Shown piece by piece: positions 36,247-37,569 of a stretch of DNA of 62,137 nt. Both the position numbers and the translations under genes were made by a program. The stretch's first letter is position 1; every line of letters starts with the position of its first letter. The notes under the pieces are model-generated. The model was not told the DNA's origin. It saw only the letters and a program-made list of their open reading frames with translations, and did no database searches. The DNA comes from Rickettsia typhi (GTDB lineage Bacteria > Pseudomonadota > Alphaproteobacteria > Rickettsiales > UBA1997), in the NCBI GenBank assembly GCA_945900795.1, contig CAMDJN010000001.1, positions 1 to 62,137 of the forward strand, given 5' to 3'.

Positions 36247-37569
36247 TTATTTTTGTGATTTGTAAATAGCGCGGTTGCCGAGATATTCTTCTATTCGAAT
36301 TAGTTCGTTGTATTTTGCAGTGCGGTCTGAGCGGCAGAGCGAGCCGGTTTTGATTTGTCCGGCATTGGTTGCAACTGCGATGTGAGCGATGGTAGTGTCT
36401 TCGGTTTCACCAGATCTGTGCGAAATAATGTTTCGGTAACCGGCAGATTTAGCGAGGTTGATGGTCTCTAAAGTTTCGCTAAGAGTTCCAATTTGATTGA
36501 CCTTTACCAGAACTGCATTGGCCATATTTTCTTTGATGCCATTTGCTAAAATCTTTGGATTGGTAACAAAAAGATCATCCCCAACAAGCTGAATCTTTTT
36601 ACCCAAAACCTTGGTAATGTTTTTCCAGCCAGCAAAGTCATCTTCAGCGAAAGCGTCTTCAATGGAAAAGATTGGGTAATTATTTACCAACTCTTCGTAA
36701 TAACGAACTAACTCGTCGCTGCTCAAAATTCTTCCTTCGCCTTCCAGATGGTATTTTCCCTCCTTGTAAAACTCGGTAGAAGCGGAATCTAATGCCAACA
36801 AAACCTCTGATCCAAGCTTGTATCCAGCCTTCTGCGTAGCTTTTGCAACATAATCTAAAGCCTCTTTAGTTGAATCTAAATTTGGTGCGAAACCACCTTC
36901 ATCTCCAACATTGGTGTTGTGCCCGTCTTTTTTTAATAATGACTTTAGGTGTTGGAAAATTTCAGCGCCAATACGAATCGCATCTTTGATTGAAGATGCG
37001 CTAACTGGCATGATCATGAATTCTTGGATGTCGATTTTATTATCGGCATGTTTGCCGCCATTGATGATGTTCATCATCGGAACTGGCATTAGATAACTAC
37101 CTACCTCTCCCCTTGTGGGAGAGGTCGACTGCGCAAGCAGTCGGGTGAGGGGTAAATTGATTTCTGCAATATGTTCAAAAAGTGGAATTCTTTTTGAAAT
37201 TGCGCTGGCCTTTGCAGTGGCGAGCGAGACCGCTAAAATAGAGTTAGCGCCGAGATTTGATTTATTTTCTGATCCATCCATTTCGATCATTATTTGATCT
37301 AATTCTTGCTGATTCTCTGCATTTAAACCAACTAGTTTTGCTGAGATTTTTTGGTTAACATTCTCTACAGCTTTAAGAACACCCTTCCCCAAAAATCTTG
37401 CCATGTCTCCATCGCGAAGCTCGCAAGCTTCTAGACTTCCAGTTGAGGCGCCAGACGGAACGGCGGCAATCGCAATCGAACCATCTTCTAATTTTACTTC
37501 CGCTTCCAATGTTGGAAAGCCGCGTGAATCAAGGATTTCACGCGCTTTGATGTTTGTGATTTTTGTCAT
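36247..37569 (-). CDS. eno: Enolase (phosphopyruvate hydratase) carrying a 15-aa in-frame insertion
   Basis: 440 aa. It has [37 protein letters not shown] and [12 protein letters not shown]. Confidence 0.95.
37103..37152. repeat. GC-rich double-hairpin element inserted in frame within eno
   Basis: acctctccc cttgt gggagaggt (37103-37125) and cgactgc gcaa gcagtcg (37126-37143) are followed by ggtgagggg. The segment encodes ...[15 protein letters not shown]... between conserved HIAE and MPVPMMN. Confidence 0.6.

What the first reader, a model, noticed from the sequence alone, without database searches (positions are those of the whole stretch)
37103..37152. GC-rich double-hairpin element inserted in frame into enolase
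E. coli enolase has 9 residues (LNGTPGKYS) between the conserved ..HIAE and [12 protein letters not shown] motifs. This protein has 24 ([24 protein letters not shown]).

The extra ~45 nt coincide with two adjacent perfect hairpins: acctctccc-cttgt-gggagaggt, and cgactgc-gcaa-gcagtcg. These are followed by ggtgagggg, and the segment is far more GC-rich than its surroundings. The reading frame is preserved.

This is the behaviour described for Rickettsia palindromic elements, which are selfish repeats that insert into protein-coding genes and are tolerated on surface loops. The sequence is unrelated to families A and B in this window.
Basis: partly seen in the sequence, partly recalled or inferred. 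Interest (0 to 1): 0.6.

Follow-up and report, generated by a model that had tools for sequence, protein, structure and literature searches.

The report
Selfish hairpin repeat translated inside enolase
A 52-base GC-rich repeat that folds into two hairpins sits in frame inside this bacterium's only enolase gene and adds a floppy 19-residue loop; it belongs to the BoxC/"triplex-motif"/Whalefall-1 repeat family, one more case of such repeats lodging inside housekeeping genes.

Summary

- **The element.** Window 37103-37152 holds two perfect hairpins and a G-rich tail. It is 64% GC in a 39% GC genome.
- **The indel.** All 28 other enolases of the order and 80 metagenomic ones have an 8-residue loop here (Y-L-G-G-x-x-A-x-x-L). 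This gene has 27 residues, a net gain of 57 nt.
- **The family.** It is not a Rickettsia palindromic element by sequence. It is a BoxC/PIT/TMECO-type "intrastrand triplex" motif whose second loop has become a hairpin. That architecture is the Rfam Whalefall-1 motif, scoring 24.9 bits against a cut-off of 37.
- **Relatives.** Related copies lie between genes in this genome. Better-scoring copies are multi-copy in genomes of the same order. There they often form inverted pairs around DUF559 nuclease genes, and they sit in frame inside ValRS, IleRS, Mfd, TruB and RecJ.
- **A parallel case.** One species of the same genus carries an unrelated 108-nt repeat in the same enolase loop. All four full copies of that repeat are in frame inside genes.
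- **The protein.** The AlphaFold model is confident except at residues 140-156, which are the residues the element encodes.

How the element moves is not shown. This genome has no DUF559 gene.

The parts
36247..37569 (-). Enolase gene, 440 aa; the only enolase in the genome, with the conserved enolase motifs that hold the catalytic residues intact
   Evidence: one match in G000; E. coli enolase 3h8a, E 6e-160; the conserved active-site motifs align unchanged.
37087..37173 (-). Anomalous patch, codons H133-M161. 87 nt stand where relatives have 30 nt (Y-L-G-G-x-E-A-x-x-L). Identity to the same-genus enolases collapses only here.
37101..37152 (+). Core repeat element, antisense to enolase. It matches Rfam RF01762 Whalefall-1 end to end and encodes P140-V156 of enolase.
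   Evidence: 24.9 bits, E 8e-5, model positions 1-56; same layout as copies that score above the cut-off; pLDDT below 50 at residues 140-156.
37103..37125 (+). Hairpin 1: C-rich block ACCTCTCCC, loop CTTGT, G-rich block GGGAGAGGT. This is the sequence-conserved part of the family.
37126..37143 (+). Hairpin 2: CGACTGC, loop GCAA, GCAGTCG. It starts TCGA and ends TCG as in the family. Across the family the stem sequence varies while the pairing is kept.
   Evidence: 108 distinct sequences among 127 copies; 76% have a stem of at least 5 bp, against 11% of shuffles.
37143..37152 (+). G-rich tail GGGTGAGGG(G), the third block of the triplex-type motif. It obeys the purine-motif triplet rules against GGGAGAGGT at 8 of 9 positions.
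   Evidence: rules taken from Holder et al. 2015, PMC4666352.

Best explanation
**What it is**
- Window 37101-37152 is a solo copy of a widespread GC-rich repeat.
- Its layout is a C-rich block, a complementary G-rich block and a second G-rich block.
- This is the BoxC/PIT/TMECO 'intrastrand triplex' layout. The usual 3-nt second loop is replaced by a small variable hairpin.
- That variant is what Rfam models as the Whalefall-1 motif.

**How it got there and why it stays**
- It is selfish or repeat DNA that became lodged, antisense, in the linker between the N-terminal domain and the TIM barrel of the only enolase gene.
- It persists for three reasons. The net gain is 57 nt (19 codons). The reading frame used has no stop. 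The site is a surface loop that tolerates extra residues.
- It is read through and adds a disordered loop, L139-V156.

**Shown**
- The indel.
- Family membership by architecture.
- Multi-copy status in related genomes.
- In-frame copies in other housekeeping genes.
- Pairing of such elements around DUF559 nuclease genes.

**Inferred**
- That the insert is translated rather than removed.
- That it is neutral for enolase.
- That it was delivered in one of two ways. It may have been moved in trans by a DUF559-type cassette; these occur in species of the same genus but not in this genome. Or it may be the surviving end of such a cassette.
- I put the DUF559-driven step at about 0.3. The 0.78 below applies to the statement without that step.
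For: **The indel**
- 28 enolases of the order and 80 metagenomic ones keep the short loop.
- No protein among 5.8 billion shares the insert peptide.
- An independent assembly is identical.

**The family**
- Rfam Whalefall-1 matches end to end at E 8e-5.
- Copies in genomes of the same order have the same layout, CCTCTCCC-loop-GGGAGAGG-TCGA..TCG-GGTGAGGG. They score up to 52.9 bits, with up to 18 copies per genome, while 14 control genomes have none above the cut-off.
- At least 120 further loci, mostly alphaproteobacterial, match the pattern.
- The second hairpin covaries across copies.
- This genome holds 3 strict TMECO motifs and 4 double-hairpin doublets, all between genes.
- The triplet rule is met at 8 of 9 positions.

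**In-frame copies elsewhere**
- ValRS, Mfd, TruB and a Type ISP enzyme.
- IleRS in a species of the same genus.

**Link to DUF559**
- 12 of 14 DUF559 loci are flanked on both sides by inverted modules.
- One worked example is laid out.
- Genome-level co-occurrence has an odds ratio of 12 and p = 8e-12.

**The protein**
- pLDDT is below 50 exactly at residues 140-156, and the rest of the model is confident with pTM 0.86.
Against: - There is no second full copy of this exact element in the genome.
- The Whalefall-1 score is below Rfam's cut-off (24.9 against 37).
- No target-site duplication or clean insertion boundary could be defined. Five to six codons on each side are also replaced (H-I-A-E-I-N ... 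G-S-Y-L-M). They oddly resemble the E. coli loop, H-I-A-E-L-N-G-T-P-G-K-Y-S-M. The event was therefore not a simple clean insertion.
- This genome has no DUF559 gene.
- Some genomes rich in Whalefall-1 copies (G133, G072) also have none, so the nuclease may be a passenger.
- The co-occurrence statistic is not corrected for phylogeny.
Confidence: 0.78

Rival explanations
1. The patch 37087-37173 was imported by recombination or templated repair from a foreign enolase allele that already carried the element. It was not produced by insertion into the resident gene. This rival does not exclude the repeat identity.
For: - The flanks of the core read H-I-A-E-I-N ... G-S-Y-L-M. They resemble the E. 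coli-type loop H-I-A-E-L-N-G-T-P-G-K-Y-S-M. They do not resemble the Y-L-G-G-x-x-A-x-x-L seen in all 28 relatives of the order and 78 of 80 metagenomic enolases.
- Divergence is sharply confined to codons 133-161.
Against: - No donor was found. No protein shares the peptide, no genomic copy carries these flanks, and no closer allele exists in metagenomes.
- The resemblance rests on about 8 residues.
- The other insert in this loop, in G024, also has altered flanks. Local remodelling after insertion is therefore an equally good account.
Confidence: 0.1
2. The extra loop has been recruited for a function of the protein, for example a new binding surface on a moonlighting enolase, and is kept by selection.
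For: - The gene is the only enolase and is otherwise conserved.
- The same loop carries an insert in a second species.
Against: - The two inserts are unrelated in sequence.
- The peptide is unique to this genome.
- It is predicted to be disordered.
- Its sequence is dictated by a DNA repeat that in four of six frames is simply stop-free.
Confidence: 0.06
3. The element works at the RNA level. It is either a Whalefall-1 small RNA gene transcribed antisense to enolase, or a hairpin in the enolase mRNA that controls stability or translation.
For: - Weinberg et al. 2010 rated Whalefall-1 as a likely non-coding RNA.
- The hairpins are strong in RNA, -33.9 kcal/mol.
- The second hairpin covaries.
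Against: - Copies occur in both orientations, as inverted pairs, inside coding frames and around a nuclease gene. This is the behaviour of repeat DNA.
- Covariation is equally expected for a DNA hairpin.
- Holder et al. 2015 state that purine-motif triplexes do not form in RNA.
- No expression data could be obtained.
Confidence: 0.04
4. The insert is an assembly artefact, or the gene is a decaying pseudogene.
For: The genome is a draft of 95 contigs, and repeats of this family lie at several contig ends.
Against: - The element is shorter than a read and is flanked by unique coding sequence in frame.
- An independent Logan assembly is identical over 6.9 kb.
- The frame is open, the conserved active-site motifs are kept, and there is no second enolase.
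Confidence: 0.02

Closest known systems
BoxC / PIT elements / TMECO G/C-rich intrastrand triplex motifs (Hoyne & Maher 2000, as cited in Holder et al. 2015, PMC4666352)
   Same: - The same three blocks with nearly the same letters. The TMECO pattern is CCCTCNCCC-N3-6-GGGNGAGGG-N3-GGGNGAGGG.
- The third block obeys the purine-motif triplets at 8 of 9 positions.
- This genome also holds three strict TMECO copies.
- Holder et al. link such motifs to local genomic instability, which fits the remodelled flanks.
   Different: - The second loop is a 17-nt hairpin instead of 3 nt. The ITxF search allows 1-6 nt, so that search would miss it.
- The parts of Holder et al. that I read treat these motifs only in relation to neighbouring ORFs and intergenic regions; I saw no in-gene case. 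Here the motif is translated inside an essential-type gene.
Whalefall-1 RNA motif, Rfam RF01762 (Weinberg et al. 2010, PMC2864571)
   Same: - Two hairpins plus a GGGUGAGG tail, aligned end to end.
- Copies of identical layout in genomes of the same order pass the Rfam cut-off.
   Different: - This copy scores 24.9 bits against a cut-off of 37. Its second stem is shorter and its first loop longer.
- The motif was described as a non-coding RNA known only from whale-fall metagenomes.
- Here it behaves as multi-copy repeat DNA in named and unnamed Alphaproteobacteria and lies inside a coding frame.
Rickettsia palindromic elements (Ogata et al. 2000, as reviewed in PMC10969869)
   Same: Palindromic repeats inserted in frame in unrelated housekeeping genes and tolerated in the protein. 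This genus and order show the same habit.
   Different: - Those elements are about 150 bp, fall into ten Rickettsia families and have a conserved peptide.
- This element is 52 nt and is of triplex-motif type.
- Its host has an enolase; from my own knowledge, unchecked here, Rickettsia lacks glycolysis.
- I did not compare sequences with those families.
- The 108-nt repeat of G024, with 4 of 4 copies in frame and one shared peptide, is the closer analogue.
REP sequences and REPIN doublets with their RAYT transposase (Nunvar 2010; Bertels & Rainey 2011; from my own knowledge)
   Same: Short hairpin repeats, solo or as inverted doublets, dispersed in the genome and also flanking in inverted orientation a single small nuclease-type gene.
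   Different: - There is no GTAG head.
- The flanked gene is a DUF559 (Vsr-like PD-(D/E)xK) protein, not an IS200/IS605-type TnpA.
- No mobilisation has been shown.
- The copies are frequently inside genes.
Coxiella burnetii QMITEs (PMC5896051)
   Same: Small palindromic non-autonomous elements that sometimes add residues to proteins in frame.
   Different: The functional genes listed there are affected at their ends, for example a C-terminal extension of EnhC; mid-ORF in-frame insertions are reported only in hypothetical proteins. The sequences are unrelated, and there is no triplex-type third block.

Membership tests
Rfam RF01762 Whalefall-1 | Two adjacent hairpins followed by a conserved G-rich 3' tail, aligned over the whole model | tested here: met
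   model positions 1-56 aligned, E 8.3e-5; the layout is the same as copies scoring 38-53 bits.
Rfam RF01762 Whalefall-1 | Bit score at or above the curated gathering score of 37 | tested here: not met
   24.9 bits.
Rfam RF01762 Whalefall-1 | Expressed as a stand-alone non-coding RNA | not testable with these tools
BoxC / PIT / TMECO intrastrand triplex motif | C-rich block of about 9 nt, loop of 3-6 nt, complementary G-rich block of about 9 nt | tested here: met
   ACCTCTCCC / CTTGT / GGGAGAGGT, against the pattern quoted.
BoxC / PIT / TMECO intrastrand triplex motif | Second loop of 3 nt (ITxF search: 1-6 nt) | tested here: not met
   The second loop is 17 nt and forms a 7-bp hairpin.
BoxC / PIT / TMECO intrastrand triplex motif | Third block pairs with the purine block by G*G, A*A and T*A triplets, one mismatch allowed | tested here: met
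   8 of 9 positions are compatible.
BoxC / PIT / TMECO intrastrand triplex motif | Actual triplex formation (CD, NMR, footprinting) | not testable with these tools
   This needs an oligonucleotide experiment.
Rickettsia palindromic elements | In-frame insertion of a palindromic repeat in a protein-coding gene | tested here: met
Rickettsia palindromic elements | Length of about 100-150 bp and membership of one of the ten Rickettsia families | tested here: not met
   The core is 52 nt and the net gain 57 nt. Only the length was tested. The family sequences were not at hand for a direct comparison.
REP / REPIN with RAYT | Conserved GTAG (or CGTC) head 5' of the palindrome | tested here: not met
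   No such conserved head. On the plus strand CTAC lies 5' of hairpin 1, which is the opposite polarity to GTAG-hairpin, and the other family copies have none.
REP / REPIN with RAYT | Repeats flank a RAYT (IS200/IS605 TnpA-like) gene | tested here: not met
   The flanked gene is DUF559. I did not search this genome for a RAYT gene.
MITE | Terminal inverted repeats and a target-site duplication | tested here: inconclusive
   The solo element has no terminal inverted repeats of its own, and no duplication could be defined because the flanks are remodelled. The doublets elsewhere in the genome do look like MITEs.
DUF559 cassette with hairpin ends (seen in this scan and here; no description came up in my paper searches) | The element has the architecture of the cassette ends | tested here: met
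   and with 53 (G219, G199 and G071 are flanked on both sides by RF01762 hits).
DUF559 cassette with hairpin ends (seen in this scan and here; no description came up in my paper searches) | A DUF559 reading frame next to the element, or at least in the genome | tested here: not met
   There is no PF04480 match in G000, which is 98% complete.

The most novel reading that the evidence does not exclude
Whalefall-1 / TMECO-type modules are not small RNAs and not passive structural DNA. They are the cis-acting ends of a family of mobile elements driven by the DUF559 (Vsr-like) nuclease.

These elements colonise surface loops of housekeeping proteins in frame. The enolase copy is then an end moved in trans, or a relic end left in a genome that has since lost the nuclease.

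If true, this would give a function to an orphan nuclease family. It would also give an origin to BoxC-type repeats and a mechanism for RPE-like in-frame insertions.
Probability: 0.3. Interest if true: 0.75.

Novelty: new variant of a known kind. Interest (0 to 1): 0.55.

Why it matters
- BoxC/PIT/TMECO repeats have been known since the 1990s, but their origin and way of spreading are not understood.
- Whalefall-1 is filed in Rfam as an environmental small RNA.
- In-frame palindromic inserts are textbook only for Rickettsia.
- This locus ties the three together. A triplex-type repeat in its Whalefall-1 form is read through inside enolase. In related genomes the same modules bracket DUF559 nuclease genes and interrupt tRNA synthetases, Mfd, TruB and RecJ in frame.
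- It also gives a natural experiment on protein tolerance: one enolase loop was hit independently by two unrelated repeats in two species of one genus.
- Notes from earlier windows of this scan report the same pattern in many other phyla. This is a further, independent instance, not a first sighting.

Tried and rejected
- **Second copy in the genome.** blastn-short with the 76-nt element found none. Only 19-nt matches to hairpin 1 turned up, and these led to the family.
- **Shared peptide.** A search of 5.8 billion proteins with residues 125-168 returned only the query itself.
- **Empty-site allele.** A metagenome scan for a near-identical allele without the insert found nothing closer than 78% identity. 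The exact insertion boundaries and any target duplication remain undefined.
- **Alignment of flanks.** Aligning the flanks by hand to same-genus DNA gave no recognisable junction.
- **REP-type GTAG head.** Absent, or of the wrong polarity.
- **DUF559 in this genome.** None.
- **Naming the organism.** Cluster look-ups gave only 'Alphaproteobacteria bacterium' and 'Rickettsiales bacterium' labels for relatives. The order is therefore left unnamed.
- **Structure job.** The first job failed and the repeat succeeded.
- **Open frames over pattern matches.** Spanning open frames in GC-rich genomes were discarded as uninformative, because long spurious open frames are common there.

Full report
**1. 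What is in the sequence**

The minus strand of window 36247-37569 is an intact 440-residue enolase. Inside it, on the plus strand, lie three features:
- Hairpin 1 at 37103-37125: ACCTCTCCC, loop CTTGT, GGGAGAGGT.
- Hairpin 2 at 37126-37143: CGACTGC, loop GCAA, GCAGTCG.
- The tail GGTGAGGGG at 37144-37152.

An 86-nt piece folds far better than shuffles, both as mRNA-sense RNA (z -4.5) and as plus-strand DNA (z -5.05), and no shuffle reaches it. GC is 0.64 here, against 0.39 for the 1.47-Mb, 95-contig genome.

**2. It is an insertion**

I took the enolases of 40 relatives and aligned 29 of them with this one.
- All 16 full-length proteins of the same genus read ..[25 protein letters not shown].
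- This one reads ..[44 protein letters not shown]. That is 27 residues where the others have 8, a net gain of 57 nt.
- Eighty further metagenomic enolases keep the short loop almost without exception.
- Identity to the same-genus proteins is normal (0.7-1.0) everywhere except codons 133-161, where it falls to zero.
- No protein among 5.8 billion shares the insert peptide.
- A Logan assembly of run ERR3719165 is identical over 6852 nt including the insert. An assembler artefact is therefore unlikely.
- The genome has no second enolase, and the conserved active-site motifs align unchanged.

**3. What the element is**

*In this genome.* There is no second full copy. A pattern search found ten related copies with the same first hairpin and tail:
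- Short ones, CCCTCTCCC-TTGA-GGGGAGAGGG-CTG-GGGTGAGGG.
- Four long ones in which a different hairpin, again starting TCGA and ending TCG, sits between the second and third block.

Apart from short, unannotated open frames (94-102 codons) over three copies, none lies inside a long open reading frame, so I treat all ten as intergenic. Several are at contig ends, and most form inverted doublets.

*Rfam.* The enolase copy matches Whalefall-1 (RF01762) end to end at 24.9 bits, E 8e-5. This is below the gathering score of 37. In 201 genomes of the same order:
- 46 have matches at E of 0.01 or better.
- 6 have matches above the gathering score, with up to 18 copies per genome, often as inverted pairs about 100 nt apart.
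- None of 14 control genomes has a match above the cut-off.

Those copies read (G/C)TA-CCTCTCC(C)-loop-(G)GGAGAGG-TCGA..stem..TCG-GGTGAGGG, exactly the layout of the enolase copy.

They are mostly Alphaproteobacteria: Bradyrhizobium, Kaistia, Microvirga, Devosia, Sphingomonas, Hyphomicrobium, and MAGs labelled Rickettsiales and Paracaedibacteraceae. The pattern left the second hairpin unconstrained. Of 127 matches, 108 have distinct sequences there. Of these matches, 76% contain a contiguous stem of at least 5 bp, against 11% of shuffles. The first hairpin and the tail are therefore conserved as sequence, and the second hairpin as shape.

*The published family.* Earlier notes of this scan pointed me to BoxC/PIT/TMECO. 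I checked this against Holder et al. 2015.
- Their TMECO pattern is CCCTCNCCC-N3-6-GGGNGAGGG-N3-GGGNGAGGG, a purine-motif intrastrand triplex.
- Three copies in this genome fit it strictly.
- The enolase element fits the three blocks and the triplet rules at 8 of 9 positions.
- Its second loop, however, is a 17-nt hairpin, outside the 1-6 nt that their search allows.

Whalefall-1 is thus the long-loop form of the same motif. Weinberg et al. 2010 knew it only from whale-fall metagenomes and rated it a non-coding RNA.

**4. The same modules inside other genes and around DUF559**

In genomes of the same order, Whalefall-1-type copies lie in frame in:
- ValRS (G187, G115)
- Mfd (G117)
- TruB, as an inverted pair (G133)
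- a Type ISP restriction enzyme (G139)
- IleRS in G154, a species of the same genus

The two ValRS genes also contain complete DUF559 (PF04480) domains in frame, bracketed by repeat-encoded peptides. DUF559 occurs in 63 of 201 genomes of the order, very often inside open frames of more than 1000 codons. Within the genus it sits in frame inside IleRS (G009, G011) and RecJ (G154).

Evidence that the modules and DUF559 go together:
- Twelve of 14 DUF559 loci are flanked on both sides by inverted hairpin-plus-tail modules, with the tails facing the reading frame.
- A worked example is L034 positions 1501-1998: a Whalefall-1 copy, a DUF559 frame of about 125 codons with a GTG start on the other strand, then an inverted Whalefall-1 copy.
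- Genomes with Whalefall-1 hits have DUF559 in 34 of 46 cases, against 29 of 155 without. The odds ratio is 12 and Fisher p is 8e-12, not corrected for phylogeny.
- The doublets in this genome (tails inward, 28-nt spacer) look like such cassettes without the gene.

Evidence against a simple dependence:
- This genome has no DUF559 at all.
- G133 and G072 have many modules and no DUF559.

The Vsr/DUF559 clade does include a group I intron homing endonuclease.

**5. A second, unrelated repeat in the same loop**

In G024, a species of the same genus, the same enolase loop carries 108 extra nt with their own hairpins. That sequence is a repeat in G024, with three more full copies at 86-89% identity and about 45 partial modules. 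All three further full copies are in frame inside genes: an Hsp90-family chaperone (HtpG), an FtsX/MacB-type permease and a class II tRNA synthetase that I read as ProRS. All are read in the same frame, as GSPYLGGFERKENDLNDRSQREGERVSGAMGVH. A short form sits in IleRS of G011. This family is the closer analogue of Rickettsia palindromic elements. It also shows that the enolase linker tolerates inserts.

**6. The protein**

An AlphaFold2 model built from 18 sequences has mean pLDDT 85 and pTM 0.86. Residues 140-156 are below 50. They lie between helix 130-146 and the first barrel strands at 159-170. P140-V156 are exactly the residues encoded by 37101-37152. The element is stop-free in four of its six frames. 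Being open is therefore unremarkable, and the real constraint is a length divisible by three.

**7. How it most likely works**

- *Shown:* a repeat-family module occupies a loop-coding site, the frame is kept, and the same family and another family do this repeatedly in related genomes.
- *Inferred:* the module arrived by the unknown process that disperses these repeats. It survives because only in-frame, stop-free insertions in tolerant loops of an indispensable gene escape purifying selection. It is translated as a disordered loop.
- *The remodelled flanks:* they may reflect error-prone repair at a structure-forming motif, since Holder et al. link these motifs to local instability. They may instead reflect later adjustment of the loop, or import of the whole patch. 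I cannot tell which. The E. coli-like H-I-A-E-I-N / G-S-Y-L-M flanks remain unexplained.
- *The bold step:* that DUF559 moves the modules. I keep this at about 0.3, in line with the later checks recorded in the earlier notes.

**8. Known or new**

In-frame palindromic repeats are known from Rickettsia, and small in-frame MITE effects from Coxiella. BoxC/TMECO and Whalefall-1 are both published. My paper searches did not turn up three things:
- the identity of Whalefall-1 with a long-loop triplex motif;
- its position inside coding frames;
- its pairing around DUF559.

Many earlier notes of this scan report the same pattern in other phyla, so this is a further instance and not a first one. I file it as a new variant of a known kind.

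**9. Limits**

- There are no reads, RNA or peptides.
- No empty-site allele was found.
- The organism could be labelled only as an uncultured alphaproteobacterium whose relatives carry 'Rickettsiales bacterium' or 'Alphaproteobacteria bacterium' labels.

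Noticed in passing
L027 (G024:C115, about 18882-19010); L187, L188, L189: A 108-nt hairpin repeat in a species of the same genus. All four full copies are in frame inside genes: enolase (same loop as here), HtpG, an FtsX/MacB-type permease and ProRS. All give one shared peptide, GSPYLGGFERKENDLNDRSQREGERVSGAMGVH. About 45 partial modules occur elsewhere in that genome. This is behaviour typical of Rickettsia palindromic elements, outside Rickettsia.
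   Followed up: partly
L178 (G011), L179 (G009), L180 (G154), L038 (G187), L040 (G115): Complete DUF559 nuclease domains are read in frame inside IleRS (two same-genus species, same site), RecJ and ValRS (twice within one gene in G115). Each is bracketed by repeat-encoded Pro/Gly-rich peptides.
   Followed up: partly
window 37153-37173 and 37087-37100: The codons flanking the element read H-I-A-E-I-N and G-S-Y-L-M. They resemble the E. coli enolase loop (H-I-A-E-L-N-G-T-P-G-K-Y-S-M), not the Y-L-G-G...L of every relative in the order. No donor was found, and this is unexplained.
   Followed up: partly
own genome, outside the window: C5:31880-32130, C25:780-1130, C80:4040-4400, C29:1-260: Four copies of an inverted doublet of double-hairpin modules, with tails inward and a 28-nt spacer. 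In two copies the spacer is filled by a further palindromic insert of about 230 nt. They look like DUF559 cassettes without the gene, and several lie at contig ends.
   Followed up: partly
own genome C5:34990-35210, C21:20650-20840, C6:28740-28880: Element of about 200 bp whose arms each carry a strict or near-strict TMECO motif with tails outward, inside longer terminal inverted repeats (CCTGTCCTAAGT... / ...ACTTTAGGACAGG).
   Followed up: no
own genome C21:20860-20955: A long, near-perfect palindrome (GGGATCCCCCCCGGGTCCCTGAGCGGAGTCGAAGGGTTC ... GAACCCTTCGACTCCGCTCAGGG) that runs into the contig end.
   Followed up: no
L117 (MAG labelled Candidatus Paracaedibacteraceae, JAHBYI010000002.1:2253-2295): A copy with the same first hairpin and the same CTTGT loop as the enolase element, but with a much shorter second hairpin. 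It is the closest first hairpin seen outside this genome.
   Followed up: no
L032 (G133), L042 (G117), L041 (G139): Whalefall-1-type modules in frame in TruB (an inverted pair between the N- and C-terminal domains), Mfd and a Type ISP restriction enzyme. G133 has seven modules, some above the Rfam cut-off, but no DUF559 gene.
   Followed up: partly
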